DNA of 64,000 bases. Source: Escherichia coli O157:H7. Its GTDB lineage: Bacteria > Pseudomonadota > Gammaproteobacteria > Enterobacterales > Enterobacteriaceae. Below, one piece after another: positions 1,060-63,252 of this stretch. Every line of letters starts with the position of its first letter. The stretch's first letter is position 1. The stretch lies in assembly GCF_013167455.1 (NCBI RefSeq), contig NZ_CP038328.1. One strand, given 5' to 3'. The notes under the pieces are model-generated. The model saw nothing but the letters and a program-made list of their open reading frames with translations. It was not told where the DNA came from and did no database searches. Made by a program: the position numbers and the translations under genes.

Positions 1060-2469
1060 ATGTCCGCTGAACACGTACTGACGATGCTGAACGAGCACGA
1101 AGTGAAGTTTGTTGATTTGCGCTTCACCGATACCAAAGGTAAAGAACAGCACGTCACTATCCCTGCTCATCAGGTGAATGCTGAATTCTTCGAAGAAGGC
1201 AAAATGTTTGACGGCTCCTCGATTGGCGGCTGGAAAGGCATTAACGAATCCGACATGGTGCTGATGCCAGACGCATCCACCGCAGTGATTGACCCGTTCT
1301 TCGCCGACTCCACCCTGATTATCCGTTGCGACATCCTTGAACCTGGCACCCTGCAAGGCTATGACCGTGACCCGCGCTCTATTGCGAAGCGCGCCGAAGA
1401 TTACCTGCGTTCCACTGGCATTGCCGACACCGTACTGTTCGGGCCAGAACCTGAATTCTTCCTGTTCGATGACATCCGTTTCGGATCATCTATCTCCGGT
1501 TCCCACGTTGCTATCGACGATATCGAAGGCGCATGGAACTCCTCCACCCAATACGAAGGTGGTAACAAAGGTCACCGTCCGGCAGTGAAAGGCGGTTACT
1601 TCCCGGTTCCGCCGGTAGACTCTGCTCAGGATATTCGTTCTGAAATGTGTCTGGTGATGGAACAGATGGGTCTGGTGGTTGAAGCCCATCACCACGAAGT
1701 AGCGACTGCTGGTCAGAACGAAGTGGCTACCCGCTTCAATACCATGACCAAAAAAGCTGACGAAATTCAGATCTACAAATATGTTGTGCACAACGTAGCG
1801 CACCGCTTCGGTAAAACCGCGACCTTTATGCCAAAACCGATGTTCGGTGATAACGGCTCCGGTATGCACTGCCACATGTCGCTGTCTAAAAACGGCGTTA
1901 ACCTGTTCGCAGGCGACAAATACGCAGGTCTGTCTGAGCAGGCGCTGTACTACATTGGCGGCGTAATCAAACACGCTAAAGCGATTAACGCCCTGGCAAA
2001 CCCGACCACCAACTCTTATAAGCGTCTGGTCCCGGGCTACGAAGCTCCGGTAATGCTGGCTTACTCTGCACGCAACCGTTCTGCGTCTATCCGTATTCCG
2101 GTGGTTTCTTCTCCGAAAGCACGTCGTATCGAAGTACGTTTCCCGGATCCGGCGGCTAACCCGTACCTGTGCTTTGCTGCCCTGCTGATGGCCGGTCTTG
2201 ATGGCATCAAGAACAAGATCCATCCGGGCGAAGCCATGGACAAAAACCTGTATGACCTGCCGCCGGAAGAAGCGAAAGAGATCCCACAGGTTGCAGGCTC
2301 TCTGGAAGAAGCACTGAACGAGCTGGATCTGGACCGCGAGTTCCTGAAAGCCGGTGGCGTGTTCACGGATGAAGCGATCGATGCGTACATCGCTCTGCGT
2401 CGCGAAGAAGATGACCGCGTGCGTATGACTCCGCATCCGGTAGAGTTTGAGCTGTACTACAGCGTCTAA
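1060..2469 (+). CDS. glnA: Glutamine synthetase
   Basis: 469-aa [35 protein letters not shown]... recognised as GlnA. Confidence 0.97.
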
Positions 2470-2530
2470 TAGTTGAAGTTGTACTACCCGGCGCAACAAC
2501 GCCGGGATTTAGTTGCCGTGGAAACTTTCA

Positions 2531-2556
2531 GCCCATCTCTGCATGGGCTTTTTTCT
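2531..2556 (+). terminator. Rho-independent terminator after glnA
   Basis: gcccat-ctctgc-atgggc stem-loop followed by TTTTTT. Confidence 0.7.
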
Positions 2557-2599
2557 CCGTCAATTCTCTGATGCTTCGCGCTTTTTATCCGTAAAAAGC

Positions 2600-2621
2600 T
2601 ATAATGCACTAAAATGGTGCA
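2600..2621 (+). promoter_or_regulatory. glnL promoter -10 (TATAAT 2600-2605) overlapped by NtrC operator
   Basis: tataatgcactaaaatggtgca: TATAAT hexamer overlapping a TGCAC-N7-GGTGCA dyad immediately upstream of glnL. Confidence 0.7.
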
Positions 2622-2642
2622 ACCTGTTCAGGAGACTGCTTT

Positions 2643-3692
2643 ATGGCAACAGGCACGCAGCCCGATGCTGGGCAGATCCTCAACTCGCTGATTAACAGTA
2701 TTTTGTTAATCGATGACAACCTGGCGATCCATTACGCCAACCCCGCCGCGCAACAACTGCTCGCCCAAAGCTCCCGCAAATTGTTTGGTACGCCGTTACC
2801 GGAACTGTTGAGCTACTTCTCATTAAATATTGAGCTGATGCAAGAAAGTCTGGAGGCGGGGCAAGGTTTTACCGATAACGAAGTGACGCTGGTCATCGAC
2901 GGTCGCTCGCATATCCTTTCTGTGACGGCCCAGCGTATGCCGGACGGCATGATCCTGCTGGAGATGGCGCCGATGGATAACCAGCGCCGCTTAAGCCAGG
3001 AACAGCTACAACATGCTCAACAAGTTGCTGCCCGTGATTTAGTGCGTGGCCTGGCACATGAGATTAAAAATCCGCTTGGCGGTTTACGTGGCGCGGCGCA
3101 GCTACTCAGCAAAGCATTACCTGACCCGTCACTGCTGGAATATACCAAAGTGATTATCGAACAGGCGGACCGGCTGCGAAATCTGGTCGACCGTCTGTTG
3201 GGGCCGCAGCTGCCCGGTACGCGCGTTACCGAAAGTATTCACAAAGTAGCTGAACGCGTGGTAACGCTGGTGTCGATGGAACTGCCGGACAACGTGCGGT
3301 TGATTCGTGATTACGATCCCAGCCTGCCGGAACTGGCGCACGACCCGGATCAAATTGAACAGGTCTTGCTGAATATTGTGCGCAATGCGCTACAGGCGCT
3401 GGGGCCGGAAGGCGGTGAAATCATTCTGCGTACCCGCACCGCGTTTCAACTGACCTTACACGGCGAACGCTATCGGCTGGCGGCGCGGATTGATGTGGAA
3501 GATAACGGGCCAGGCATTCCGCCTCATTTGCAGGATACGCTGTTTTACCCGATGGTCAGCGGCCGCGAAGGTGGCACCGGGCTTGGCTTATCCATCGCTC
3601 GTAATTTGATTGATCAGCATTCAGGCAAAATTGAATTTACCAGTTGGCCAGGGCATACCGAGTTCTCGGTTTACCTGCCTATCAGGAAATAA
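2643..3692 (+). CDS. glnL: Nitrogen regulation sensor histidine kinase NtrB (NRII)
   Basis: 349-aa ORF with H-box ([11 protein letters not shown]) and ATP-binding G-box motifs. Confidence 0.96.
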
Positions 3693-3703
3693 AGGTGACG
3701 TTT

Positions 3704-5113
3704 ATGCAACGAGGGATAGTCTGGGTAGTCGATGACGATAGTTCCATCCGTTGGGTGCTTGAACGTGCGCTCGCTGGAGCGGGTTTAACCTGTACAACAT
3801 TTGAGAACGGCGCGGAGGTACTGGAGGCGCTGGCGAGCAAAACGCCGGATGTGCTGCTTTCAGATATCCGTATGCCGGGAATGGACGGGCTGGCACTGCT
3901 CAAGCAGATTAAACAGCGCCATCCGATGCTTCCGGTCATCATTATGACCGCACATTCCGATCTGGATGCTGCCGTCAGCGCCTATCAACAAGGGGCGTTT
4001 GATTATCTGCCCAAACCGTTTGATATCGACGAAGCCGTGGCGCTGGTTGAGCGCGCCATCAGTCATTACCAGGAACAGCAGCAGCCGCGTAATGTTCAGC
4101 TTAACGGCCCAACGACCGATATCATCGGCGAAGCGCCAGCCATGCAGGACGTGTTCCGTATTATCGGTCGGCTTTCGCGTTCTTCTATTAGCGTGCTGAT
4201 TAACGGCGAATCCGGCACCGGTAAAGAACTGGTCGCTCATGCCCTGCATCGCCACAGTCCGCGAGCCAAAGCGCCATTTATCGCTCTGAATATGGCGGCT
4301 ATCCCGAAGGATTTGATCGAATCAGAACTGTTTGGTCACGAGAAAGGCGCGTTTACCGGCGCGAATACCATTCGTCAGGGGCGTTTTGAACAGGCTGATG
4401 GCGGTACATTATTTCTCGATGAAATTGGCGATATGCCGCTGGATGTGCAGACGCGTTTGCTGCGCGTGCTGGCAGACGGTCAGTTTTACCGCGTTGGCGG
4501 CTATGCGCCGGTGAAAGTGGATGTGCGGATTATCGCTGCCACTCACCAGAATCTCGAACAGCGGGTGCAGGAAGGTAAGTTCCGTGAGGATCTGTTCCAC
4601 CGCCTGAACGTTATCCGCGTTCATCTGCCGCCGCTGCGTGAGCGTCGGGAAGATATTCCCCGCCTGGCGCGCCATTTTTTACAGGTTGCCGCGCGAGAAC
4701 TGGGCGTAGAAGCGAAGTTGCTGCATCCGGAAACCGAAGCCGCGTTGACGCGTCTGGCGTGGCCAGGCAACGTGCGCCAGCTGGAAAACACCTGCCGCTG
4801 GCTAACGGTAATGGCTGCCGGACAGGAAGTGTTGATTCAGGATTTGCCTGGCGAACTGTTTGAATCAACGGTTGCGGAGAGTACTTCGCAAATGCAACCG
4901 GACAGTTGGGCGACGCTTCTTGCGCAGTGGGCAGACAGAGCGCTACGTTCCGGTCATCAAAATCTGCTTTCCGAAGCGCAGCCAGAGCTGGAGCGGACGT
5001 TACTGACGACCGCGTTGCGACATACGCAGGGGCATAAACAGGAGGCGGCGCGGCTACTCGGCTGGGGCCGCAACACCCTGACGCGTAAGTTAAAAGAGCT
5101 GGGGATGGAGTGA
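3704..5113 (+). CDS. glnG: Nitrogen regulation response regulator NtrC (NRI), sigma54 activator
   Basis: Start placed at internal ATG ([23 protein letters not shown]...) giving 469 aa; receiver domain, AAA+ GESGTGKE motif, C-terminal HTH. Confidence 0.95.
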
Positions 5114-5224
5114 TTCACGGCTTGTGTGTAAAGATTGATTATTGAGCGCAAATTGCTGGTATTTTGCGCTTTACTGTTCCGATAAGTTCAGTATGATCTT
5201 GCCCGGAAAACGGGGAGAGTCATT

Positions 5225-5335
5225 ATGCTGGAATCAATAATTAATCTGGTATCGAGTGGCGCAGTTGACAGCCACACACCGCAAACTGCTGTTGCTGCCG
5301 TGCTGTGTGCCGCGATGATTGGGCTGTTTAGTTGA
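5225..5335 (+). CDS. yshB: Small protein YshB (36 aa)
   Basis: ggagag SD then ATG; MLESIINLVSSGAVDSHTPQTAVAAVLCAAMIGLFS, matches my recollection of the small protein between glnG and hemN. Confidence 0.6.
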   Translation: MLESIINLVSSGAVDSHTPQTAVAAVLCAAMIGLFS

Positions 5336-5369
5336 GTTTCAGATTGCTGATGAAGTGCTCTTTGTTCAT

Positions 5370-5457
5370 GCCAGATGCTGCGTGAACGCCTTATCCGGCC
5401 TACAAAAGCAATATTTTCAACAGGTTTTGTAGGCCTGATAAGCGTAGCGCATCAGGC
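5370..5457. repeat. REP/BIME palindromic elements
   Basis: gccagatgctgcgtgaacgccttatccggcctac and gtaggcctgataagcgtagcgcatcaggc, classic REP consensus. Confidence 0.75.
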
Positions 5458-5524
5458 AATCTTGTTCTCAGCACATTGATGGCGCTTTCGTTTTCTACTT
5501 TGTAAACGAAGCGCCATTCACTAT

Positions 5525-6898
5525 TTAAATCACCCGAGAGAACTGCTGCATCCGCGCTTTCTGGCGCAGATAGGTATCAAAGCACATGCAAATGTTGCGG
5601 ATCAGCAAGCGACCTTTCGCCGTCACCTGTATTCCCTTCTCATCCACATCCACCAGCCCATCTTTTGCTAACGGGGCGAGCAGCTTGAGATCTTCCGCAA
5701 AGTAATCAGCGAAGTGCAAATCCCACTGTTTCTCAATAGGGGCGTAATCCAGACGGAAGTTGCAGATGAGCGACTTAATCACATCGCGGCGAATACAGTC
5801 ATCACGCGTTAGCGCAATACCACGCCACAGCGCATTGCCTTGTTCATCCACTTGCTGATAGTACTGCTTCAACTCTTTCTGGTTCTGCGCGTAGCAGTCG
5901 CCAATCATGCTGATGGCGGAAACGCCCATCCCCAGCAGATCGGTATCGCCCTGAGTGGTGTAGCCCTGGAAATTACGATGCAGCACGCCTTCACGCTGGG
6001 CCACCGCCAGCTCGTCATCCGGACGGGCAAAGTGATCCATACCGATAAACTGATAGCCCGATTGCGTCAGGAAGGCGATGGTTTCCTGCAGGATATCGAG
6101 TTTTTGCTGCGGACTCGGCAGGTCAGCATCTTTGATTTTGCGCTGAGCAGCAAAAATGGTCGGCAGATGCGCATAGTTAAAGACGCTCAGACGGTCAGGG
6201 TTTAGCTCCGCCACGCGTTTCAGGGTAAAGGCGAAACTTTCCGGCGTCTGTTTCGGCAGGCCGTAAATCAGGTCGATGTTGGTGGAGGTAAAGCCAATCT
6301 CACGCGCATGGTTAAGCAGCGCAAAGATAAACTCTTCATCCTGCTCGCGGTTAACCAGACGTTGCACTTCTTTGTTGAAGTCCTGCACGCCCATACTCAG
6401 GCGATTAAAGCCCTCGGCGCGTAAATGATCGAGTACATCCAGTTCGATTTCCCGCGGATCGACTTCGATCGAAATCTCCGCATCGGCATTGAACTGGAAG
6501 TTTTCGCGCAGCAGCTTCATCAGGCGGCTGATTTGCGCTTTATTAAGATACGTCGGCGTTCCGCCGCCCCAGTGCAGCTGGCTGACGTGACGCCCGGCGA
6601 ACAGCGGTGCACGATGGACGATTTCTTGCTCCAGCGCGTCCAGATACTGATCGGCCTTGTGCTGCTGGCGAGTAACAATCTTATTGCAGCCGCAGAAGTA
6701 ACAAAGCTTATGGCAGAACGGGATATGTACGTAGAGAGATAATGGACGCTCAGGATAGCGCGCCACGGCTTGTAAAAACGCCTGTTCGCCGAAGTCTTCT
6801 GAAAACTCCAGCGCGGTCGGGTACGAGGTGTATCGTGGCCCGGAATAGTTATATTTCTGGATCAGGGCCAGATCCCAGTCGATTTGCTGTACAGACAT
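5525..6898 (-). CDS. hemN: Oxygen-independent coproporphyrinogen III oxidase (radical SAM)
   Basis: ORF MSVQQIDWDLALIQKYNYSGPRYTSYPTALEF... with CxxxCxxC radical-SAM motif (CHKLCYFCGC); 457 aa from the ATG at 6898. Confidence 0.95.
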   Translation of the reverse strand: MSVQQIDWDLALIQKYNYSGPRYTSYPTALEFSEDFGEQAFLQAVARYPERPLSLYVHIPFCHKLCYFCGCNKIVTRQQHKADQYLDALEQEIVHRAPLFAGRHVSQLHWGGGTPTYLNKAQISRLMKLLRENFQFNADAEISIEVDPREIELDVLDHLRAEGFNRLSMGVQDFNKEVQRLVNREQDEEFIFALLNHAREIGFTSTNIDLIYGLPKQTPESFAFTLKRVAELNPDRLSVFNYAHLPTIFAAQRKIKDADLPSPQQKLDILQETIAFLTQSGYQFIGMDHFARPDDELAVAQREGVLHRNFQGYTTQGDTDLLGMGVSAISMIGDCYAQNQKELKQYYQQVDEQGNALWRGIALTRDDCIRRDVIKSLICNFRLDYAPIEKQWDLHFADYFAEDLKLLAPLAKDGLVDVDEKGIQVTAKGRLLIRNICMCFDTYLRQKARMQQFSRVI

Positions 6899-7086
6899 GC
6901 TCACTCCTTCCGATGGCGTCTCTGGCGGCTACGGCGTACCGGCGGATGCCCGTTTCGGGTCATCAGCCGGTTGCGCAGCCACTTTTGTCGCCGCGACAAC
7001 CGCTGTAGTTTAACGAATAACCACACCAGATAACATATAACCGGAAGGGTTATCAGCAGAACGGGAAGGCCCACGGCGGCAATCCG

Positions 7087-7593
7087 TTAGTTGCCCCGCA
7101 GCAGACGCATCATGTCTTCTTGCTTCTCGTCTTCTTCCTCTTCTTCGTCATCGTCATAAGAGAGGCCGAGTTTCTGCATCAACTCATCAATACGATCCAG
7201 TTTAGCATCCACCCAGGATTGCTCTTCGGCACTCAGGGTTTCGCCTGCTTCCAGACGTTCCAGCAGCGCATCCAGACGCTCATCCGTTTCTAGTAATTCC
7301 AACTCCGCCTGCGGTGAAAGCATAGGTTTCTCACTCTTCGGTTTGTGCTGTTTGGTGACTTTTTCAGTCACGCCCAATGGAATAGGGGTTTTACTGCCAA
7401 TACGTGGATCTTTCGGTGCGTTCTGGCCTTTGCTGCCTGACGTGTTGTTTCCGCCCGCTGCGCGGCTGCCCGGCGCATGACCACGACGTTTTTTCTGACG
7501 CTTGCGGTCACGAGCTTCCTGATTCAGCTCTTCGCGCGTTTTGCGACGCGCTTTTGCATGACCTTTGCTGCGTGATGGTGAAGATGGTTTCAT
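7087..7593 (-). CDS. yihI: Der GTPase-activating protein YihI
   Basis: [32 protein letters not shown]... basic N-terminus, acidic C-terminal tail. Confidence 0.9.
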
Positions 7594-7660
7594 AATGGTT
7601 CGTCTTTTAGCCGTTTTATTCAGTATAGATTTGCGGCGGAATCTAACAGAAAGCAAGCAA

Positions 7661-7904
7661 AGAAAAAAGGCGACAGATTACTCTGTCGCCTTTTTTCCTG
7701 ACTCATAACCCTTAACGGGTCTTACAATCCTTGCAGGCCGCCAACACACCCTGTTTTTCCATTAGCCGGAACAATCCGTGTTGATTCCATTTCCGTTTAA
7801 TTACGTCTCCGGACGTTTGTCTTCCTGACAATCCTCTGTCTTCGCCTCCTGGCGCTCCTGACCCTCATCCTGAGTCATTGTTCCTGTTAGCGTCCTCGCT
7901 CTAT
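7661..7904 (-). ncRNA. csrC: CsrC small RNA (CsrA-sequestering)
   Basis: Minus-strand sequence atagagcgaggacgctaacaggaacaatgactcaggatgagggtcaggagcg... with many GGA motifs, ending in ggcgacag/ctgtcgcc hairpin plus T-run; lies between yihI and engB. Confidence 0.85.
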
Positions 7905-8174
7905 GGGTGCTACTTTACGCCTTTGCTTTAAACAAACAATCAACCGCCATCAGTATTTGCACATTTTCAGAGTTTTATATAAAAGCAATTAACTGATTTA
8001 TATAGCTTATTTGACATGCATCGCAGAATTTTCTCTGCTATTTCGCATAAAGACTATCGGCAATGTCTCACAAAGCGTATGGCTTTTACTTACAACGCTC
8101 ACGCCGAAAAATCCGCCTTTTATTATGGTTCAGGTATAATCGCCGCAAAGCTTTGACTGACGGAGACGACCGCT

Positions 8175-8807
8175 TTGACTAATTTGAATTATCAACAGAC
8201 GCATTTTGTGATGAGTGCGCCTGATATTCGCCACCTACCTTCCGATACCGGAATTGAAGTGGCTTTTGCAGGCCGTTCCAACGCAGGTAAATCCAGCGCG
8301 CTGAACACGCTGACTAACCAGAAAAGCCTGGCTCGTACCTCAAAAACCCCTGGACGCACCCAGCTTATCAACCTGTTTGAAGTGGCTGACGGCAAGCGTC
8401 TGGTTGACTTGCCTGGGTACGGTTATGCGGAAGTCCCGGAAGAGATGAAGCGCAAATGGCAGCGCGCGCTCGGCGAGTACCTCGAAAAACGTCAGAGCCT
8501 ACAAGGTCTGGTAGTGCTAATGGATATTCGCCATCCGCTGAAAGATTTGGATCAGCAGATGATTGAGTGGGCGGTAGACAGCAATATCGCCGTGCTGGTA
8601 CTGCTGACCAAAGCGGACAAACTGGCAAGCGGCGCACGTAAAGCGCAATTGAATATGGTGCGTGAAGCGGTGCTGGCGTTTAACGGTGATGTGCAGGTTG
8701 AAACGTTTTCTTCGCTGAAGAAACAAGGCGTGGACAAGCTGCGGCAGAAACTGGATACCTGGTTTAACGAGATGCAGCCTGTAGAAGAAACGCAGGACGG
8801 CGAATAA
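8175..8807 (+). CDS. engB: Ribosome biogenesis GTPase EngB/YihA
   Basis: 210-aa [25 protein letters not shown]...[13 protein letters not shown]1 motif; apparent TTG start. Confidence 0.92.
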
Positions 8808-56264: not shown

Positions 56265-56409
56265 TTACAGCCAGTTCTTGCGCTTAAAGTACAGATACGG
56301 TGCCAGGCCCGCGAGGATCATAAAGATAATCGCGCCTGGGTAGCCGAAACTCCACTTCAGTTCTGGCATAAACTCAAAGTTCATGCCATAGCTGGAGGCA
56401 ATCGGCGTA
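56265..56409 (-). repeat. Duplicated 3' end of corA (gene fragment; direct repeat of 57976-58120)
   Basis: About 145 bp nearly identical to the genuine corA 3' end; encodes ...[44 protein letters not shown] in frame; identity decays toward the inner edge. Confidence 0.9.
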
Positions 56410-56597
56410 GGAAAAAGTTTCCTAATCGGTAAATTCAATATTTTGTTATTAACAATGAGCAAGACCAATCATTAACGACGTTCTCTTCAGAGATGTAATG
56501 AAAAAATGTGAAGTGTACTTCTTTTTTAAATATTTTTTTACCCTAGCATTTGTTCTCAAATTGATATTGAGCTTAAATATAACCAAGGAAAATGTAA

Positions 56598-57446
56598 ATG
56601 AATAACACATTACTTCCATCAATTAATATTCCCTGTACACTTTTCGAAACTATTAGTTTATTTGATAATTATTCTGCTGATGATATGCAATATGGTGATA
56701 TGGTAGAACAAGATTTTCTCTCACTCGGCCTAAGCGATATCTCAGCAAAAGTTGATCCTTACAGACTTATTAAATACCATTTCCCTGGCCCAGGTTCTAT
56801 TAATGTTGCTTTTAGTGCCTCAAGTTCCGGAACAAAAATATCACAACGTGAATGCACTGATATTTTATTTGCAGAAATGAAAGAACTAGCAAAAATGTTT
56901 TCCTTTTTTGGACAATATAAAACACTTATCGAAGATCTGATTGAACATTTTAGATATGGAAATGGCAGCAATTTTCATAGCCAACAATTAAATTTATCTT
57001 TTCATGAAAAAATAAATAAATATGGTTATAATAGTCCAATACGAATAATCAAAGAATGTATCGAAAATGGCATTAATTCAACTCCCTCGACAGGATACCA
57101 ACCTCTTATCCTGCAAAGCATTAAAACCAAATTACTTTCATCAAGACTAAATAAATTTAATGACTTCGAGGACAGTTTTAATGGCTTAGGAATCAGTGTT
57201 CATGATATTTCAGCTCAAAAAATATCTCTTTTAAGTTTTCAAAAATACGCTATAGGATGGAGTGCAACAATTCATTTTGTAGCACAGGACCACTTCGGTC
57301 TTGATGTAACTGATATCAAAAACAAGACTTACAGCAAATATAGATTTTTTCGCATATGGTTCTTTTTACAACGGCATAAAGACTTTGCTTTCAAACCTTT
57401 TTTCACCAATTTTAACACTATCGAAAGAATCGAAAATTATCTATGA
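56598..57446 (+). CDS. Hypothetical protein, 282 aa, no signal peptide, no recognised family
   Basis: 849-nt ORF in about 30% GC DNA (estimated by eye), which is improbable by chance; AAGGA SD 9 nt upstream of ATG; stop overlaps next ORF start (ATGA). Confidence 0.8.
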   Translation: MNNTLLPSINIPCTLFETISLFDNYSADDMQYGDMVEQDFLSLGLSDISAKVDPYRLIKYHFPGPGSINVAFSASSSGTKISQRECTDILFAEMKELAKMFSFFGQYKTLIEDLIEHFRYGNGSNFHSQQLNLSFHEKINKYGYNSPIRIIKECIENGINSTPSTGYQPLILQSIKTKLLSSRLNKFNDFEDSFNGLGISVHDISAQKISLLSFQKYAIGWSATIHFVAQDHFGLDVTDIKNKTYSKYRFFRIWFFLQRHKDFAFKPFFTNFNTIERIENYL

Positions 57447-57934
57447 AAAGCAAACTCCAAAAAATTATATTATGTTTATTTCTTCTATGCTGCATCTATA
57501 ATTTATGGACATTGCGTCCTGTACAGATTTTGTATACATACTCTGATGCTGGCAATTCAGTCTTTCTGGTCGTTGATCATCTGCCATGGACTGACAGCGA
57601 TAAAATAAATTGGTATCTGAAGCATCAGAATGAAATTAAAAATCAACATCCCCTACCAGAAGGTAGTTGGCATACCTGGTATGTCATTGATATCGGTAAT
57701 GGCTTCACTGACTATAAAAAATATATCGAAGGGCCGTATGAAGATCTCTACTGTTTCCCGACAATTAAGAGCAATGATAATTGCATCACGAAAAATTACT
57801 TAATGGTTATTAATGAATACCCTTATCGTAACACTCATATTGGTATTAACGATTTTACTGAGTATCAATTAACACAAGAAAATAAAATAGAGCAAGTTTT
57901 CAATCCGCATAACTTTAAAAAAGACAATTTTTAG
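57443..57934 (+). CDS. Hypothetical membrane-anchored or secreted protein, 163 aa
   Basis: N-terminal K-rich then hydrophobic stretch (MKSKLQKIILCLFLLCCIYNLWTL) typical of signal peptide/anchor; translationally coupled to upstream ORF; ends 41 nt before convergent corA stop. Confidence 0.75.
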   Translation: MKSKLQKIILCLFLLCCIYNLWTLRPVQILYTYSDAGNSVFLVVDHLPWTDSDKINWYLKHQNEIKNQHPLPEGSWHTWYVIDIGNGFTDYKKYIEGPYEDLYCFPTIKSNDNCITKNYLMVINEYPYRNTHIGINDFTEYQLTQENKIEQVFNPHNFKKDNF

Positions 57935-58926: not shown

Positions 58927-59295
58927 GACCGGGACTCCCAATGCTTAAAATATCGGACAGTTCGGTGGGCACACAGAAACAAATTGGGTTTCAGACCATT
59001 AAACAGCCTGACTCAGCGCGACGGGAAAAATTGAGGTCGCTGACAACCGCTAAGGCTATCAGCAAAAAGGGATAGCCTTAGGAGTTGATCCTGGATGACA
59101 GGATAGTGAGCCAGTATCTACTGGGTGTGTCCAAGGCGAATGTCCTCTTAGAGTGATCGTGCGCGCATGTTACGCCAGCAAAATTTTGCCGTCAACACGC
59201 AACAGAACACCACAGAACAATAGTTGAACTTCGCGCTTTTTGGTACTCGTCAAGGTCGCTAACAGGATAAAAAAATCCCACATCCAGGACCTATA

Positions 59296-60060
59296 ATGGC
59301 GCATCGGCTACTCATTGGTAAAGGAATGATCACCTTGAATCTCAAACGGATTTTTCTCGCCCTCACCTTACTTCCCTTGTTTGCTGTTGCCGCTGATGAT
59401 TGCGCACTCTCAGATCCAACGCTGACCGTACAGGCGTATACCGTTAATCCTCAAACAGAGCGGGTGAAAATGTACTGGCAAAAAGCCAATGGCGAAGCGT
59501 GGGGAACTTTACATGCTCTGCTGGCGGATATGAATAGTCAGGGTCAGGTGCAGATGGCGATGAACGGCGGCATCTATGATGAAAGCTATGCGCCGCTCGG
59601 TTTGTACATCGAAAACGGTCAGCAGAAGGTGGCGTTAAATCTCGCTTCAGGTGAAGGGAATTTCTTTATCCGTCCTGGCGGCGTGTTTTATGTCGCGGGA
59701 GATAAAGTCGGCATCGTTCGTCTGGATGCCTTCAAAACCAGTAAAGAGATTCAGTTTGCGGTGCAGTCAGGGCCAATGTTGATGGAAAACAGTGTAATTA
59801 ATCCGCGTATTCATCCCAACGTCGCCTCACGTAAAATTCGTAACGGTGTTGGAATTAATAAACATGGGAATGCCGTGTTTTTGTTGAGCCAGCAGGCGAC
59901 AAATTTTTATGATTTTGCCTGTTATGCCAAAGCGAAACTGAACGTTGAGCAGCTGCTTTATCTTGATGGCACGATTTCACATATGTATATGAAAGGCGGG
60001 GCAATCCCGTGGCAACGCTATCCTTTTGTCACCATGATTTCCGTCGAGCGGAAAGGTTAA
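59296..60060 (+). CDS. yigE: DUF2233-type periplasmic protein YigE
   Basis: 254 aa MAHRLLIGKGMITLNLKRIFLALTLLPLFAVAADDCALSDP... with signal peptide. Confidence 0.85.
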   Translation: MAHRLLIGKGMITLNLKRIFLALTLLPLFAVAADDCALSDPTLTVQAYTVNPQTERVKMYWQKANGEAWGTLHALLADMNSQGQVQMAMNGGIYDESYAPLGLYIENGQQKVALNLASGEGNFFIRPGGVFYVAGDKVGIVRLDAFKTSKEIQFAVQSGPMLMENSVINPRIHPNVASRKIRNGVGINKHGNAVFLLSQQATNFYDFACYAKAKLNVEQLLYLDGTISHMYMKGGAIPWQRYPFVTMISVERKG

Positions 60061-60142
60061 GCATTGTACACTCGAGGAGGCCAGACAAACTGGGGCTGGC
60101 TACACAGCTGGAAAATCATCAGATAAATGAAGGGAAACAAAA

Positions 60143-61045
60143 ATGAAAAAAACGCTCGCAACGTTATTTTTATTAACGTGTCTGGGATCATCATCCGCTT
60201 ATGCGGATAACGCTTTGATTTTACAAACTGATTTTAGCCTGAAAGATGGTGCCGTCTCGGCGATGAAAGGGGTCGCATTCGGTGTTGACCATAATCTTAA
60301 AATATTTGATTTAACACACGAAATTCCACCGTATAACATCTGGGAAGGCGCTTACCGCCTGTATCAGACCGCCAGTTACTGGCCGCAAGGTTCGGTATTT
60401 GTCAGTGTGGTCGATCCGGGCGTAGGCACTGACCGTAAATCGATAGTGCTGAAAACCAAAAACGGTCAATACTTCGTTTCACCGGATAACGGTACGCTCA
60501 CTTTGGTGGCGGAATCGCTGGGTATTGAGAGCGTCCGGGAAATCGACGAAAAAGCTAACCGCCTGAAAGGTTCTGAAAAGTCATATACCTTCCACGGTCG
60601 TGACGTGTATGCCTACACCGGTGCACGTCTGGCTTCCGGGGCGATCACGTTCGAGCAGGTGGGGCCTGAGCTTCCTGCAAAGGTTGTCGAACTTTCTTAT
60701 CAGAAAGCAAAAGCAACAAAAGGTGAAGTGAAGGGCAATATCCCGATTCTCGATATTCAGTACGGCAACGTCTGGAGCAATATCAGCGACGAGTTGCTGA
60801 ATCAGGCGGGGATCAAACTCAACGACACGTTGTGTGTGACCATTTCCGAAGGTTCCCGGCAAAAATACGCAGGGAAAATGCCGTATGTCGCAAGCTTCGG
60901 CGATGTGCCGGAAGGACAGCCGATGGTGTATCTGAACAGCTTATTGAATGTTTCCGTGGCGCTGAATATGGATAATTTCGCGCAGAAACATCAGGTTGCG
61001 TCTGGTGCTGACTGGAATATTGATGTGAAGAAATGTGATAAGTAA
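60143..61045 (+). CDS. SAM hydroxide adenosyltransferase-like (DUF62 / chlorinase-fluorinase fold) protein with N-terminal signal peptide
   Basis: 300 aa; signal peptide MKKTLATLFLLTCLGSSSAYA then family motifs QTDFSLKDGAVSAMKGV, VVDPGVGTDRKS, FVSPDNGTLTLV, YGNVWSNISDELLNQAGI (recalled from fluorinase/SalL-type enzymes). Confidence 0.75.
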   Translation: MKKTLATLFLLTCLGSSSAYADNALILQTDFSLKDGAVSAMKGVAFGVDHNLKIFDLTHEIPPYNIWEGAYRLYQTASYWPQGSVFVSVVDPGVGTDRKSIVLKTKNGQYFVSPDNGTLTLVAESLGIESVREIDEKANRLKGSEKSYTFHGRDVYAYTGARLASGAITFEQVGPELPAKVVELSYQKAKATKGEVKGNIPILDIQYGNVWSNISDELLNQAGIKLNDTLCVTISEGSRQKYAGKMPYVASFGDVPEGQPMVYLNSLLNVSVALNMDNFAQKHQVASGADWNIDVKKCDK

Positions 61046-61057
61046 GGTGCTGATGCC

Positions 61058-61082
61058 GGATGCGGTGTGGCGCACCGCATCC
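61058..61082. terminator. Stem-loop between convergent DUF62-like gene and uvrD
   Basis: ggatgcggtg-tggcg-caccgcatcc perfect 10-bp inverted repeat; no clear T-run, may be REP-like. Confidence 0.5.
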
Positions 61083-61089
61083 CGCAACG

Positions 61090-63252
61090 TTATACCGTCT
61101 CCAGCCGGGCGTATGCCGCCACCAGCCATTTAATACCCTGGCCCTGGAATGCCACCTGCAAACGGCTATGCTCGCCGCTGCCTTCCATATTGACGATAGT
61201 GCCTTCACCAAACTTAGCGTGGCGTACACGCTGGCCGAGCTTGTAGCCGCTGTCGTTCTCGACCATCGGCGTACCCATACGCTGATGGCTGACCGGGCGG
61301 CTTACCGTGGCGCGCAGGCGCACCTCTTCCACACACTCTTCCGGCAACTCACCGATAAAGCGCGACGGGCGATGGTAAACCTCTTTGCCATACAGACGGC
61401 GAGTTTCCGCGTAGGTCAGCGTCAGTTTCTGCATCGCGCGGGTTACACCAACGTAGGCCAGACGGCGTTCTTCTTCCAGACGTCCGCCTTCATCCAGCGA
61501 CATCTGGCTTGGGAACATGCCCTCTTCCATACCGACGATAAACACCTGCGGGAACTCCAGGCCTTTCGCCGAGTGCAGCGTCATCAACTGCACTGCATCC
61601 TGCCAGGTATCCGCCTGCCCCTCGCCCGCTTCCAGCGCCGCATGGGAGAGGAACGCCTGCAGCGGCATTAAATCTTCGTCTTCTTCGTTGTAGCTGAATT
61701 GGCGCGTTGCCGTCACTAGTTCCTCTAAGTTTTCGATACGCGTCTGACCTTTTTCGCCCTTCTCCTGCTCGTACATGGTACGCAGGCCGGAGTCTTTAAT
61801 TACCCGGTCAGTCTGTACATGCAGCGGCATATCGGCAGTTTCCTGCGCTAAGGCGTCGATCAGTTCCATAAACCGCTGTAAGGCGCTGGCAGCACGTCCG
61901 GCGAGGGCTTTTTCCTGCAACAGTTCACGACATGCCTGCCAGAGTGTTAACTGGCGATCGCGCGATGTCTGACGTACCACGTCCAGCGTCCGGTCACCAA
62001 TACCCCGCGTTGGCGTATTCACCACACGCTCAAAGGCCGCGTCGTCGTTGCGGTTGGCAATCAGGCGCAGATACGAGAGCGCATCTTTGATTTCCTGGCG
62101 TTCGAAGAAGCGCATCCCGCCGTAAATACGGTACGGCATACTGGCCTGCAATAACGCCTCTTCGAGCACCCGCGACTGGGCGTTGCTGCGGTAGAGAATG
62201 GCGCACTCGGCGAGCGCCCCACCGTTGTCCTGCCAGGTTTTGATGCGGTTAACGACAAAACGCGCTTCATCGAGTTCGTTAAAAGCGCAATAGAGGGAAA
62301 TAGGCTCACCGTCCGCGCCATCGGTCCACAGTTTTTTACCCAGACGCCCGTTGTTGTTTTCAATCAGGGCGTTCGCGGCGCTCAGAATGTTACTGGTAGA
62401 ACGATAGTTCTGCTCCAGACGGATAGTTTCGGCACCGGGGAAATCATTGAGGAAACGCTGAATATTCTCCACCTGCGCCCCGCGCCAGCCGTAGATTGAC
62501 TGGTCGTCATCACCGACGATCATCACTTTGCCGGTGTCGCCCGCCAGCAGGCGGATCCACGCGTACTGAATGTTGTTGGTATCCTGGAATTCGTCCACCA
62601 GGATGTTGGTAAAACGTTCGCGGTAGTGTTGCAGGATATGCGGCTTGTTAAGCCACAACTCGTGAGCGCGCAGCAGCAGCTCGGCGAAGTCCACCAGGCC
62701 TGCACGATCGCACGCTTCCTGATACGCCTGATACACCTTCTGCCAGGTCTGCTCCACCGGATTACCGTAGCTTTGAATATGATGCGGACGCAGGCCTTCA
62801 TCTTTCTGGCTGTTGATGTACCACATTGCCTGGCGCGGCGGCCACTGCTTCTCGTCGAGGTTCATGGCTTTGATCAGACGCTTAAGCAGGCGTAGCTGGT
62901 CTTCGCTATCGAGGATCTGGAAATCCTGCGGCAGATTGGCGTCCATATGGTGCGCACGCAGCAAACGGTGCGCCAGCCCGTGGAAGGTGCCGACCCACAT
63001 GCCGCCCTGGCTGGTGCCCATCAGTTGCCCGATACGATGACGCATCTCCGCCGCCGCTTTGTTGGTAAACGTCACAGCCATAATCGAGTATGGCGAGCAG
63101 TTTTCCACGCTCATCAGCCAGGCGATACGATGCACCAGTACGCGCGTCTTACCACTGCCCGCGCCCGCCAGCACCAGAAGGTTGCTGCGCGGCGCGGCCA
63201 CCGCTTCGCGCTGTTTGTCATTAAGGCTGTCGAGCAGGTAAGAAACGTCCAT
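61090..63252 (-). CDS. uvrD: DNA helicase II
   Basis: MDVSYLLDSLNDKQREAVAAPRSNLLVLAGAGSGKTRVLVHRIAWL..., 720 aa from internal ATG. Confidence 0.97.
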   Translation of the reverse strand: MDVSYLLDSLNDKQREAVAAPRSNLLVLAGAGSGKTRVLVHRIAWLMSVENCSPYSIMAVTFTNKAAAEMRHRIGQLMGTSQGGMWVGTFHGLAHRLLRAHHMDANLPQDFQILDSEDQLRLLKRLIKAMNLDEKQWPPRQAMWYINSQKDEGLRPHHIQSYGNPVEQTWQKVYQAYQEACDRAGLVDFAELLLRAHELWLNKPHILQHYRERFTNILVDEFQDTNNIQYAWIRLLAGDTGKVMIVGDDDQSIYGWRGAQVENIQRFLNDFPGAETIRLEQNYRSTSNILSAANALIENNNGRLGKKLWTDGADGEPISLYCAFNELDEARFVVNRIKTWQDNGGALAECAILYRSNAQSRVLEEALLQASMPYRIYGGMRFFERQEIKDALSYLRLIANRNDDAAFERVVNTPTRGIGDRTLDVVRQTSRDRQLTLWQACRELLQEKALAGRAASALQRFMELIDALAQETADMPLHVQTDRVIKDSGLRTMYEQEKGEKGQTRIENLEELVTATRQFSYNEEDEDLMPLQAFLSHAALEAGEGQADTWQDAVQLMTLHSAKGLEFPQVFIVGMEEGMFPSQMSLDEGGRLEEERRLAYVGVTRAMQKLTLTYAETRRLYGKEVYHRPSRFIGELPEECVEEVRLRATVSRPVSHQRMGTPMVENDSGYKLGQRVRHAKFGEGTIVNMEGSGEHSRLQVAFQGQGIKWLVAAYARLETV

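What the first reader, a model, noticed from the sequence alone, without database searches (positions are those of the whole stretch)
60143..61045. Exported SAM hydroxide adenosyltransferase-like (DUF62) protein inserted between yigE and uvrD
The ORF carries the conserved motifs of the SAM hydroxide adenosyltransferase / halogenase fold but begins with a cleavable signal peptide (AYA-D site), implying a periplasmic location where SAM is not expected, so the substrate may be a different adenosyl compound or an imported nucleoside. From memory, K-12 has only about 110 bp between the uvrD and yigE stops, so this appears to be an extra gene of about 0.9 kb relative to K-12, though unlike the corA cassette its composition looks host-like.
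Basis: partly seen in the sequence, partly recalled or inferred. Interest (0 to 1): 0.6.

Follow-up and report, generated by a model that had tools for sequence, protein, structure and literature searches.

The report
Exported SAM hydrolase shared with Helicobacter
This is a real, intact gene for a secreted (periplasmic) member of the SAM-hydrolase (DUF62) enzyme family that about 44% of E. coli strains carry and K-12 has lost; it most likely frees methionine and adenosine from S-adenosylmethionine (SAM) taken from outside the cell, and Helicobacter pylori carries an 89%-identical copy that it evidently acquired from the Escherichia lineage.

Summary
Window 60143-61045 (+) is a 300-aa ORF with both DUF62 domains (PF01887 2.6e-53, PF20257 3.8e-18), the family's Asp-Arg-His triad and a typical Sec signal peptide (MKK / hydrophobic core / AYA|D). 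The window is E. coli O157:H7 and the gene is ECs_4744. K-12 lacks it and has 146 bp of REP sequence there.

It is not a private insertion. Of 5,426 complete E. coli genomes, 2,412 carry it and 3,007 have the K-12-type junction. Two other enterobacterial contigs carry it in the same corA-uvrD interval, so K-12 most likely lost it.

- H. pylori and H. acinonychis carry an ortholog (HP0709) that is 89% aa and 83.6% nt identical, nested inside a gammaproteobacterial clade. This points to transfer from Escherichia to Helicobacter.
- In the nearest relatives (50-60% identity), forms without a signal peptide sit in operons with an ECF importer under methionine-specific T-boxes. Exported forms sit next to a TonB-dependent receptor.

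Best reading, inferred and not shown: periplasmic hydrolysis of exogenous SAM to methionine plus adenosine for uptake. It is a new variant of a known enzyme kind, of moderate to good interest.

The parts
60143..61045 (+). CDS of the exported DUF62 / SAM-hydrolase-family protein (300 aa; ECs_4744 in O157 Sakai; WP_000751612.1)
60143..60205 (+). Signal peptide, residues 1-21 (MKKTLATLFLLTCLGSSSAYA); predicted SPase I cleavage between A21 and D22. It is not a lipobox: position -1 is Thr, and the Cys is not conserved in H. acinonychis.
   Evidence: cleavage itself is inferred
60206..61042 (+). Mature enzyme, 279 aa, about 30.5 kDa, pI 5.65; N-terminal and C-terminal DUF62 domains
60413..60436 (+). 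DPGVGTDR motif holding Asp91 (60413-60415) and Arg98 (60434-60436), two of the three residues of the family's water-activating triad
   Evidence: D91 and R98 are invariant in 78 relatives. The match to PH0463 D68/R75 rests on my own knowledge of Deng et al. 2009.
60590..60604 (+). FHGRD motif with His151 (60593-60595), the third triad residue
   Evidence: H in 71 of 78 relatives
60833..60835 (+). Cys231, paired in conservation with Cys298 (61034-61036). This Cys pair occurs only in the E. coli / Helicobacter / Aeromonas / Rodentibacter exported clade and may form a periplasmic disulfide.
   Evidence: the disulfide is inferred and no distance was measured
60061..60142 (+). 82-bp spacer between the yigE stop and the start codon. 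It contains the SD-like AAGGGA at 60130-60135. The last ~26 nt (60117-60142) are the only flanking sequence still alignable with H. pylori.
   Evidence: no convincing promoter or terminator lies in the spacer
60061..61045 (.). The 985-bp segment that differs from K-12, where 30 unrelated nt stand in its place
61046..61089 (.). REP-like inverted repeat between the convergent DUF62 and uvrD genes. K-12 has the same two ends with an extra REP copy between them.
59296..60060 (+). yigE (exported phosphodiester glycosidase family, DUF2233), the upstream gene on the same strand. It is possibly co-transcribed but is not part of the unit shared with Helicobacter or with the enterobacterial contig L087.
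61090..63252 (-). uvrD, the convergent downstream neighbour and locus anchor

Best explanation
The gene encodes a Sec-exported, periplasmic member of the DUF62 (SAM hydroxide adenosyltransferase / SAM hydrolase) family. After the 21-residue signal peptide is removed, the ~30.5-kDa enzyme would use its Asp91-Arg98-His151 triad to activate water for attack on C5' of an adenosyl-sulfonium substrate. That substrate is most likely S-adenosyl-L-methionine that reaches the periplasm from outside, including the biologically inactive (R)-sulfonium epimer that builds up in aged SAM. The products would be L-methionine and adenosine, which the cell can import with its ordinary methionine and nucleoside transporters. 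E. coli cannot import SAM itself. On this reading the enzyme is a nutrient-scavenging periplasmic hydrolase, comparable in logic to UshA or gamma-glutamyl transpeptidase. It is ancestral at the corA-uvrD locus in Escherichia, lost in K-12-like lineages, and was passed from the Escherichia lineage to the ancestor of H. pylori and H. acinonychis, which need external methionine and purines. Shown here: family membership, fold, conserved triad, signal-peptide anatomy and its phylogenetic pattern, population distribution, the horizontal transfer, and the link of relatives to the methionine regulon and to transporters. Inferred: actual export and cleavage, SAM as the substrate of this particular protein, and the physiological benefit.
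For: Family and chemistry. Both Pfam DUF62 domains match. PDB sequence and fold matches are to SAM hydrolases and halogenases only. D30, D91, R98, R153 and D154 are invariant and H151 is present in 71 of 78 relatives. The E. coli protein keeps 65 of the 66 positions that are at least 90% conserved in both exported and cytoplasmic relatives, and only 5 conservative positions separate the two groups. This argues for the same substrate in both compartments.

Export. The signal-peptide anatomy is canonical. About 44 of 80 species-level relatives have such an N-terminus, all from diderm phyla, while the ~35 without one are nearly all Bacillota or Actinomycetota. All solved, cytoplasmic homologs begin where the mature protein would begin. 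A Cys pair is restricted to the exported gammaproteobacterial/Helicobacter clade. HP0709 is listed in H. pylori outer-membrane-vesicle proteomes (PMC8756444; weak, because ribosomal proteins are listed there too).

Substrate comes from outside and yields methionine.
- In 17 of 35 cytoplasmic relatives the gene is immediately followed by an ECF importer: S component, fused double ATPase, T component. None of the 45 exported relatives has this.
- Nine Bacilli loci have a T-box leader directly upstream, and all nine have an AUG (Met) specifier. In four of these the T-box controls the DUF62 gene alone.
- In Desemzia the operon is T-box(Met)-metA-metY-DUF62-ECF. In Streptococcus the gene follows metN-metI.
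- In 11 of 45 exported relatives (Bacteroidota, Oxalobacteraceae) the gene is adjacent to one orthologous TonB-dependent receptor. None of the 35 cytoplasmic relatives has this.
- Two of those loci add an APC amino-acid permease. One lies next to a SAM-riboswitch-controlled metH.
- No cobalamin or FMN riboswitch was found in the 52 loci scanned.

Known chemistry of the family: SAM is hydrolysed to adenosine plus Met, with a preference for (R)-SAM (bioRxiv 10.1101/2025.08.29.672840; PMC12120602).

Fit to hosts. H. pylori depends wholly on purine salvage and has a NupC nucleoside transporter and an adenosine deaminase (PMC13328217). Its methionine auxotrophy is from my own knowledge.

Selection. 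dN/dS is 0.04-0.06.
Against: - There is no biochemical or localisation data for this protein or for any exported family member.
- The regulatory and transporter evidence comes from relatives that are only 50-60% identical.
- The E. coli, Helicobacter, Aeromonas and Rodentibacter copies are orphans, with no linked transporter, riboswitch or MetJ box.
- The protein scores far below NCBIfam's curated cut-offs for the two (R)-SAM hydrolase equivalogs: 131.9 against 350 and 116.9 against 470.
- Characterised DUF62 enzymes are slow, and one study doubts that (R)-SAM hydrolysis is even their physiological role (PMC12120602).
- How much free SAM is available in gut or stomach is unknown.
- 55% of E. 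coli do without the gene.
- For cytoplasmic relatives whose Met T-box controls the gene alone, mobilising the cell's own SAM is an equally good reading. That reading cannot be transferred to a periplasmic enzyme.
Confidence: 0.5

Rival explanations
1. The enzyme is periplasmic but works on a different 5'-substituted adenosine. Candidates are adenosylcobalamin (displacing cob(I)alamin from C5'), a 5'-halo- or 5'-deoxy-adenosine, or a SAM-like antimetabolite or natural product. Its role would be cofactor processing or detoxification rather than methionine supply.
For: The family's chemistry is nucleophilic displacement at C5', which in principle accepts other leaving groups. TonB-dependent receptors and ECF transporters typically carry vitamins and cofactors. 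One exported relative lies beside the B12-dependent metH. NCBIfam equivalog cut-offs for (R)-SAM hydrolase are not reached. Exported relatives occur fused to unrelated hydrolase or phosphatase domains.
Against: All nine T-boxes are methionine-specific, and co-operonic genes are metA, metY, metN and metI. No cobalamin or other cofactor riboswitch was found in 52 scanned loci. Streptococci and others with the ECF operon do not depend on B12 for methionine (own knowledge). The conserved core is essentially identical to that of relatives tied to methionine.
Confidence: 0.2
2. The N-terminus is not a working export signal. The protein stays in the cytoplasm and does the housekeeping job proposed for other DUF62 enzymes, which is removing the inactive (R)-epimer of the cell's own SAM.
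For: That is the only experimentally supported role in the family. No export experiment exists. The signal peptide was judged by rules and conservation only, because no SignalP tool was available.
Against: The tripartite signal with AXA is conserved, despite sequence drift, in E. coli, H. pylori, H. acinonychis, Aeromonas and Rodentibacter, and in about 44 relatives from ten diderm phyla. Monoderm relatives lack it. The N-terminal 21 residues have no counterpart in any solved structure. The Cys pair is clade-restricted. HP0709 appears in OMV proteomes.
Confidence: 0.07
3. It is a periplasmic SAM-dependent halogenase (SalL-like chlorinase or fluorinase) that makes 5'-chloro-5'-deoxyadenosine, possibly using the high chloride of the stomach or gut.
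For: SalL and soil chlorinases are among the best PDB matches (E about 1e-36, TM 0.76-0.87). RefSeq's name keeps the option open with 'SAM hydrolase/SAM-dependent halogenase family'. One GWAS paper calls HP0709 'adenosyl-chloride synthase'.
Against: The fluorinase equivalog scores 84 bits against a cut-off of 400. The Asp-Arg-His triad that marks the hydrolases is intact and conserved; that it is absent from the fluorinase and chlorinase is my own knowledge of Deng et al. 2009. No downstream halometabolite pathway genes are nearby. The methionine-regulon context of relatives fits release of methionine, not halogenation.
Confidence: 0.05
4. It is a decaying or functionless accessory gene, tolerated hitch-hiking DNA at a REP-rich recombination spot.
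For: It is absent from 55% of E. coli. At least one strain (HS-02) has a frameshifted copy. No phenotype is known.
Against: It is full length in 2,412 genomes. dN/dS is about 0.04 between O157 and strain 536 at dS 0.19, and about 0.06 against H. pylori at dS 0.94. It is retained in thousands of H. pylori sequences.
Confidence: 0.03

Closest known systems
Cytoplasmic DUF62 SAM hydrolases (Pyrococcus horikoshii PH0463, Methanocaldococcus MJ1651, Thermus TTHA0338, Salinispora StDUF62, Sulfolobus and Haloferax SAMH)
   Same: It has the same two-domain fold (TM up to 0.87) and the same Pfam domains. The motifs TDF(G/S), DPGVGT.R and FHGRD and the Asp-Arg-His triad are the same. The expected reaction is SAM + H2O to adenosine + L-methionine.
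   Different: Identity is only 30-36%, and scores fall below the curated equivalog cut-offs. This protein carries a signal peptide and a clade-specific Cys pair, so it would act outside the cytoplasm on foreign SAM, not on the cell's own (R)-SAM. Its nearest relatives are wired into methionine-starvation control and importers, which has not been reported for the characterised enzymes.
H. pylori HP0709 / jhp0648 (uncharacterised; variously called 'acetolactate synthase' or 'adenosyl-chloride synthase'; a gastric-cancer GWAS hit)
   Same: It is the ortholog: 300 aa, 89% aa and 83.6% nt identity without gaps, with the same signal-peptide layout, the same mature N-terminus DNALILQTDF and the same Cys pair.
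   Different: Its genomic setting differs (uvrA-omp-rsmH-HP0708-[HP0709]-hom OMP gene) with no yigE. Its GC has drifted down to 42.9%. It appears near-universal in H. pylori but is optional in E. coli.
SAM-dependent halogenases SalL (chlorinase) and FlA (fluorinase)
   Same: They share the same superfamily and fold, and SN2 attack at C5' of SAM with release of L-methionine.
   Different: In the halogenases a halide is the nucleophile, not water. They are cytoplasmic and sit in natural-product pathways. The fluorinase model scores 84 bits against a cut-off of 400. The protein here has the hydrolase-type triad.
Periplasmic nutrient-liberating hydrolases (E. coli UshA, CpdB, AphA; gamma-glutamyl transpeptidase and asparaginase of H. 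pylori)
   Same: The logic proposed here is the same: split a compound that cannot be transported in the periplasm, then import the pieces (own knowledge).
   Different: The folds and chemistry are unrelated, and none of them acts on SAM.
Phage T3 SAMase (SAM lyase)
   Same: It also destroys SAM.
   Different: The fold and the products (MTA plus homoserine lactone) are unrelated. It acts intracellularly as an anti-restriction and metabolic weapon (own knowledge). No PHROG or phage context applies here.

Membership tests
DUF62 / SAM hydroxide adenosyltransferase superfamily (Pfam PF01887 + PF20257) | Significant match to the N-terminal domain model PF01887 | tested here: met
   i-E 2.6e-53, residues 26-174, covering model positions 2-145 of 145
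DUF62 / SAM hydroxide adenosyltransferase superfamily (Pfam PF01887 + PF20257) | Significant match to the C-terminal domain model PF20257 | tested here: met
   i-E 3.8e-18, residues 198-291
DUF62 / SAM hydroxide adenosyltransferase superfamily (Pfam PF01887 + PF20257) | Two-domain fold superposable on solved members | tested here: met
   AF2 model with pLDDT 88. Foldseek against 2zbu gives E 1e-29 and TM 0.77/0.87. SalL, PH0463, MJ1651 and FlA are all at probability 1.00.
DUF62 hydrolase branch (as opposed to halogenases) | Conserved Asp-Arg-His triad (PH0463 D68/R75/H127) for water activation | tested here: met
   D91, R98 and H151 are present. D and R are invariant and H is in 71 of 78 relatives. 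The residue mapping comes from my own knowledge of the PH0463 sequence and Deng et al. 2009.
DUF62 hydrolase branch (as opposed to halogenases) | Catalyses SAM + H2O to adenosine + L-methionine | not testable with these tools
   Needs an enzyme assay
DUF62 hydrolase branch (as opposed to halogenases) | Homotrimer with active sites at subunit interfaces | not tested
   Only a monomer was modelled
NCBIfam equivalogs '(R)-S-adenosyl-L-methionine hydrolase' NF058624 / NF053629 | Whole-protein score at or above the curated cut-off | tested here: not met
   131.9 bits against 350, and 116.9 bits against 470. It should not be filed as an equivalog of the characterised (R)-SAM hydrolases.
Fluorinase TIGR04507 / SalL-type halogenase | Score at or above the curated cut-off | tested here: not met
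   84 bits against 400
Sec/SPase I-exported periplasmic protein | Positively charged n-region, hydrophobic h-region of 10-15 residues, small residues at -3 and -1 | tested here: met
   MKK; residues 5-14 have KD 2.47, the maximum of the whole protein; A19 and A21 precede D22. This was judged by rule-based inspection, not SignalP.
Sec/SPase I-exported periplasmic protein | The signal is conserved among orthologs and follows cell-envelope type | tested here: met
   It is present in H. pylori, H. acinonychis, Aeromonas, Rodentibacter and about 44 of 80 relatives, all diderm, and absent in monoderm relatives.
Sec/SPase I-exported periplasmic protein | Demonstrated export and cleavage | not testable with these tools
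   The only indirect hint is HP0709 in OMV proteomes.
Bacterial lipoprotein | Lipobox [LVI][ASTVI][GAS]C at the end of the h-region, conserved in orthologs | tested here: not met
   The sequence is L-L-T-C13, with Thr at -1. The Cys is replaced by His in H. acinonychis.
Horizontally transferred gene (Escherichia lineage to gastric Helicobacter) | Identity far above that expected between the phyla, and nesting inside the donor clade | tested here: met
   Identity is 89% aa and 83.6% nt, while the next relatives are Aeromonas at 72-76% and Rodentibacter at 72%. The Aeromonas + Rodentibacter + E. coli + Helicobacter clade has 99% bootstrap support.
Horizontally transferred gene (Escherichia lineage to gastric Helicobacter) | Compositional anomaly and lack of synteny in the recipient; vertical signal in the donor group | tested here: met
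   The H. pylori gene has GC 42.9% against 38.0% for its locus and 25-30% for its flanks. Homology ends 26 nt upstream and 6 nt downstream. Enterobacterial contigs L087 and L088 hold the gene at the corA-uvrD locus. Ec-Hp dS is 0.94, lower than Ec-L087 at 1.33 and Ec-L088 at 2.14.

The most novel reading that the evidence does not exclude
One DUF62 subfamily is the catalytic heart of an undescribed route for scavenging methionine and adenosine from environmental S-adenosylmethionine. The enzyme sits in a different compartment according to the cell envelope. Monoderms import the substrate with a dedicated, Met-T-box-controlled ECF transporter and cleave it in the cytoplasm. Diderms take it across the outer membrane, in some lineages with a dedicated TonB-dependent receptor, and cleave it in the periplasm. 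The ancestor of H. pylori, a methionine and purine auxotroph, captured this periplasmic enzyme from the Escherichia lineage and fixed it, which would explain why HP0709 is conserved and shows up in disease-association scans.
Probability: 0.35. Interest if true: 0.75.

Novelty: new variant of a known kind. Interest (0 to 1): 0.6.

Why it matters
The physiological role of DUF62 SAM hydrolases is openly debated. Hydrolysing an expensive cofactor looks wasteful, and a 2025 study questions the '(R)-SAM clean-up' idea (PMC12120602). The comparative evidence gathered here gives this subfamily a concrete role that can be tested directly. That evidence is methionine-specific T-boxes, co-operonic met genes, a dedicated ECF importer in Gram-positives, and signal peptides plus a TonB-dependent receptor in Gram-negatives. 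The proposed role is to turn foreign SAM into methionine and adenosine.

If correct, this would:
- add SAM to the list of nutrients exchanged in gut communities;
- explain a strain-variable E. coli gene that is present in O157, B2 pathogens, BL21 and Shigella but absent from K-12, so it has been missed by K-12-centred functional genomics;
- give a function to HP0709, a conserved H. pylori gene flagged in a gastric-cancer GWAS.

The Escherichia-to-Helicobacter transfer is also a clean single-gene example of cross-phylum exchange between two human gastrointestinal bacteria. If the hypothesis is wrong, the gene remains an ordinary, already annotated accessory family member.

Tried and rejected
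- MetJ boxes: (AGACGTCT)x2 with up to 3 mismatches gave no match anywhere in the window, so there is no regulatory link to the E. coli Met regulon.
- Promoter and terminator scan of 59100-61300: nothing above the shuffle expectation, and none in the yigE-DUF62 spacer.
- Remnant of the gene in K-12's spacer: the 30 nt after the yigE stop align no better than shuffles, so the sequence alone does not tell insertion from deletion.
- Plasmid vehicle: the only close 'plasmid' hits are mislabelled 4.9-Mb chromosomes. Genuine plasmid copies (Enterococcus) are 47%-identical cytoplasmic forms.
- Conserved neighbours in the closest non-Escherichia relatives (Aeromonas, Rodentibacter): only variable genes such as RNase T2-like, PhoX-like, brnQ and mutM. 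Cluster 4 of the neighbour analysis was an artefact of antisense ORFs in high-GC DNA.
- SAM riboswitch in front of the TonB-dependent receptor: not found. The single SAM-I riboswitch (L023) controls metH, not the receptor.
- Specificity of the ECF S component and of the receptor from solved structures: only a marginal hit to S. aureus RibU (E 0.055) and plug-domain hits to siderophore and B12 receptors, which is uninformative.
- Domain fusions as Rosetta-stone clues: phosphatase, alpha/beta-hydrolase and D-Ala-D-Ala dipeptidase, with no consistent message.
- Literature: nothing for ECs4744 or its Z-numbers, and nothing linking SAM hydrolase to ECF or TonB transport in the held library. Rodionov et al. 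2004 and 2009 could not be read. They may already describe a Met-regulated ECF transporter ('MtsTUV', from memory).
Full report
**1. What is at the coordinates**

The ORF at 60143-61045 (+) is real: ATG start, 300 codons, an AAGGGA ribosome-binding site 7 nt upstream, and a TAA stop. The window is E. coli O157:H7, since the gene is 100% identical to several O157:H7 chromosomes. In strain Sakai it is ECs_4744, there misnamed 'acetolactate synthase'. RefSeq now calls it 'SAM hydrolase/SAM-dependent halogenase family protein', WP_000751612.1.

- Pfam finds both DUF62 domains: PF01887 at 2.6e-53 and PF20257 at 3.8e-18.
- All sequence matches in the PDB are DUF62 hydrolases, chlorinases or fluorinases. 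The best is Thermotoga 2zbu at 1.3e-44.
- An AlphaFold2 model (pLDDT 88) superposes on them with TM 0.72-0.87.
- The motifs TDFS, DPGVGTDR and FHGRD are present. D91, R98 and H151 correspond to the Asp68-Arg75-His127 water-activating triad of PH0463. This mapping comes from my own knowledge of that sequence and of Deng et al. 2009. D and R are invariant and H is in 71 of 78 relatives.
- The protein does not reach NCBIfam's curated cut-offs for the characterised (R)-SAM hydrolases (131.9 against 350; 116.9 against 470) or for fluorinase (84 against 400). It is therefore a family member, not an equivalog of any studied enzyme.

**2. The signal peptide**

- Residues 1-21 (MKK-TLATLFLLTCLG-SSSAYA) have the canonical n/h/c layout.
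- Residues 5-14 are the most hydrophobic 10-residue window of the whole protein (KD 2.47 against 1.75 elsewhere).
- A19 and A21 precede D22.
- Every solved, cytoplasmic homolog starts aligning at residue 23-29.
- In the model, residues 1-20 form a detached low-confidence helix before the first core strand at 25-29.
- It is not a lipobox: position -1 is Thr, and the Cys is not conserved in H. acinonychis.
- The comparative test is stronger than the rule-based one. Among 80 species-level relatives fetched from GTDB genomes, about 44 have such an N-terminus. All of these come from diderm phyla: Proteobacteria, Bacteroidota, Verrucomicrobiota, Planctomycetota, Spirochaetota, Thermotogota, Synergistota and others. 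About 35 lack it, nearly all Bacillota or Actinomycetota.
- A Cys231/Cys298 pair is conserved only in the E. coli, Helicobacter, Aeromonas and Rodentibacter exported clade, which is what one would expect of a periplasmic disulfide. This is inferred; no distance was measured.
- Export itself remains unproven.

**3. Relation to K-12 and to the species**

K-12 MG1655 has uvrD and yigE stops 146 bp apart with no gene between them. Identity between the two strains is perfect up to the yigE stop codon. The 985 bp at 60061-61045 are then replaced in K-12 by 30 unrelated nt. The REP-like hairpin at 61046-61089 is shared, with an extra REP copy inside it in K-12.

Across 5,426 complete E. coli genomes the locus is cleanly biallelic. 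2,412 carry the full gene at 95-100% nt identity, including O157, O55:H7, 536, E2348/69, ATCC 25922 and BL21. 3,007 carry the K-12-type junction. Shigella has the gene too. One strain has a frameshifted copy.

Two short contigs from public sequencing runs (L087, L088) encode 89%-identical proteins. They are clearly from other Enterobacteriaceae. L088 has the uvrD 3' end just downstream, at 80.7% nt identity to E. coli, about the same divergence as the DUF62 gene itself. L087 has the conserved ysgD-yigE intergenic element just upstream. The gene is therefore old at this locus, and the K-12 state is best read as a loss. O157 and strain 536 alleles differ by dS 0.19 and dN 0.007, which indicates strong purifying selection. 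The synonymous divergence is about four times that of neighbouring yigE.

**4. The Helicobacter ortholog**

The unexpected result of the protein search was that H. pylori and H. acinonychis proteins are 88-89% identical over all 300 residues. One 90% cluster alone holds 2,579 sequences.

- The H. pylori gene is HP0709/jhp0648. It is embedded in genuine H. pylori chromosomes between rsmH/HP0708 and a hom outer-membrane-protein gene.
- At DNA level it is 83.6% identical to the window without a single gap. By codon position the identities are 0.90, 0.96 and 0.65. dS is 0.94 and dN 0.060.
- Homology stops 26 nt upstream of the ATG and 6 nt after the stop.
- Its GC is 42.9%, in a 38% locus with 25-30% flanks.
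- The next-nearest proteins are from Aeromonas (72-76%) and Rodentibacter (72%). Everything else is at most 61%.
- In a neighbour-joining tree, E. coli/Shigella (98% bootstrap) and H. pylori + H. acinonychis (99%) group with the two enterobacterial contigs. This group lies inside a clade with Aeromonas and Rodentibacter (99%).
- Synonymous divergence and third-position transversions are lower between E. coli and H. pylori (0.94; 8.6%) than between E. coli and the other enterics (1.33-2.14; 16-22%).

Together this indicates a single-gene transfer from the Escherichia lineage into the common ancestor of H. pylori and H. acinonychis. I put transfer at about 0.9 and this direction at about 0.75. 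I found no mention of this in the held literature. HP0709 appears there only as a gastric-cancer GWAS hit, in OMV proteome lists and as a primer site.

**5. What it most likely does**

Characterised DUF62 enzymes hydrolyse SAM to adenosine and methionine, preferring the inactive (R)-sulfonium epimer. Why cells would do this is disputed. The genomic context of the subfamily nearest to the E. coli protein is informative.

(a) Relatives without a signal peptide.
- In 17 of 35 loci the gene is followed at once by an ECF importer: a PF07155-type S component, a fused double EcfA and an EcfT. None of the 45 exported relatives has this.
- Nine Bacilli loci have a T-box leader directly upstream, and in all nine the specifier codon is AUG, methionine. 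In four of them the T-box governs the DUF62 gene alone.
- In Desemzia the operon reads T-box(Met)-metA-metY-DUF62-ECF. In streptococci the gene follows metN-metI.

(b) Exported relatives.
- In 11 of 45 loci, spread over Bacteroidota and Oxalobacteraceae, the gene is adjacent to one orthologous TonB-dependent receptor. None of the 35 cytoplasmic relatives has this.
- Two loci add an APC amino-acid permease. One lies beside a SAM-riboswitch-controlled metH.

(c) No cobalamin, FMN or other cofactor riboswitch was found in 52 loci scanned.

(d) The two groups share 66 positions conserved at 90% or more, of which the E. coli protein keeps 65. They differ consistently at only five conservative positions. 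The same substrate in both compartments is therefore the economical assumption.

The simplest model is that the substrate is a methionine-bearing adenosyl compound from outside, that is, SAM. Monoderms import it and cleave it inside. Diderms cleave it in the periplasm and import the products. For E. coli, which has no SAM transporter, and for H. pylori this would be a scavenging function. H. pylori relies entirely on purine salvage and requires methionine (own knowledge).

The steps from 'relatives' to 'this protein', and from 'signal peptide' to 'periplasmic', are inferences. The E. coli and Helicobacter copies have no linked transporter or Met-regulatory site. I put the full model at about 0.5.

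**6. Rivals**

- A different adenosyl substrate such as adenosylcobalamin or an antimetabolite (about 0.2) is not excluded. It fits the methionine-specific regulation poorly.
- A non-exported housekeeping (R)-SAM hydrolase (about 0.07) conflicts with the way the signal follows envelope type across phyla.
- A halogenase (about 0.05) conflicts with the triad and the model scores.
- A decaying gene (about 0.03) conflicts with dN/dS of 0.04-0.06.

**7. Comparison with the known, and novelty**

The gene is annotated at family level in thousands of genomes, so its existence is not new. It is an accessory gene, not a strain-specific insertion. I could not find the following described in the held library:
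- the exported form of DUF62 as a class;
- the link of this subfamily to methionine-starvation control and to ECF and TonB-dependent uptake;
- the Escherichia-to-Helicobacter transfer of HP0709.

From memory, Rodionov and colleagues predicted Met-regulated ECF transporters in Firmicutes. I could not read those papers to see whether the DUF62 partner was noted.

I classify the finding as a new variant of a known kind, with interest 0.6. It is ordinary as an 'extra gene', but it offers a direct experimental handle on the open question of what DUF62 enzymes are for.

Noticed in passing
L003 6001-6903 (H. pylori chromosome CP079344.1), compared with window 60117-61051: H. pylori HP0709 is 83.6% nt and 89% aa identical to the E. 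coli gene. Homology is confined to the ORF plus 26 nt upstream and 6 nt downstream, and the gene's GC is 42.9% between flanks of 25-30%. This looks like a single-gene transfer from Escherichia to Helicobacter.
   Followed up: yes
L042 4378-4654, L048 2114-2387, L049 4677-4949, L050 4626-4895, L051 4660-4934, L057 4552-4840, L058 4709-4978, L074 4610-4867, L078 2364-2633: Nine T-box leaders lie upstream of cytoplasmic DUF62 genes in Bacilli, all with an AUG (Met) specifier. Several control a DUF62-ECF importer operon. In Desemzia (L078) the operon also contains metA and metY.
   Followed up: yes
L015, L017, L021, L023, L026, L031-L033, L039, L043, L045 (around 2000-8700 in each): One orthologous TonB-dependent receptor of about 830-960 aa lies next to exported DUF62 genes in Bacteroidota and Oxalobacteraceae. 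In L023 the order is receptor, APC amino-acid permease, DUF62, SAM-I riboswitch (6098-6210), metH.
   Followed up: partly
window 56267-57934: Two low-GC ORFs (DUF3289 at 56598-57446, 31.4% GC; DUF943 at 57443-57934, 32.9% GC) and a partial corA pseudogene sit between corA and rarD, where K-12 has yigF and yigG.
   Followed up: no
window 61046-61089 and K-12 L002 6147-6292: O157 has a REP-like hairpin between the convergent genes. K-12 has the same ends with an additional REP copy inside. REP-rich DNA marks the indel boundary.
   Followed up: partly
L089 23976-24878 (Sakai ECs_4744) and many entries: The wrong product name 'acetolactate synthase' is propagated for this gene in O157 Sakai, Shigella and H. 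pylori records. One GWAS paper calls HP0709 'adenosyl-chloride synthase'.
   Followed up: no
window 60143-61045 compared with L090 1501-2403 (E. coli 536): Synonymous divergence between O157 and B2 alleles of this gene (dS 0.187) is about four times that of the adjacent yigE (0.048). This suggests old allelic lineages or import from another Escherichia.
   Followed up: no
L091 2026-2883 (E. coli HS-02): This strain has a frameshifted, internal-stop copy of the gene. It is an independent decay route, different from the clean K-12-type replacement.
   Followed up: no
window 60833-60835 and 61034-61036: Cys231 and Cys298 are conserved together only in the E. coli, Helicobacter, Aeromonas and Rodentibacter exported clade. 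They may form a disulfide.
   Followed up: partly
L025 4971-6890 (Fervidobacterium); P0204; P0156: Exported DUF62 proteins occur fused to other domains: an extra SAM_HAT_C domain plus a Y_phosphatase3 domain, a D-Ala-D-Ala dipeptidase, or an alpha/beta hydrolase.
   Followed up: partly
L087 3-50 compared with window 59153-59200; L088 1187-1399: In one unnamed enterobacterium the DUF62 gene follows the ysgD-side intergenic element directly, with no yigE. In another, a 70-aa membrane ORF lies between it and uvrD. The interval is a small hotspot of gene turnover.
   Followed up: partly
window 59078-59134 (-): The small ORF ysgD (YsgD/CorL family) is annotated upstream of corA, as in K-12.
   Followed up: no
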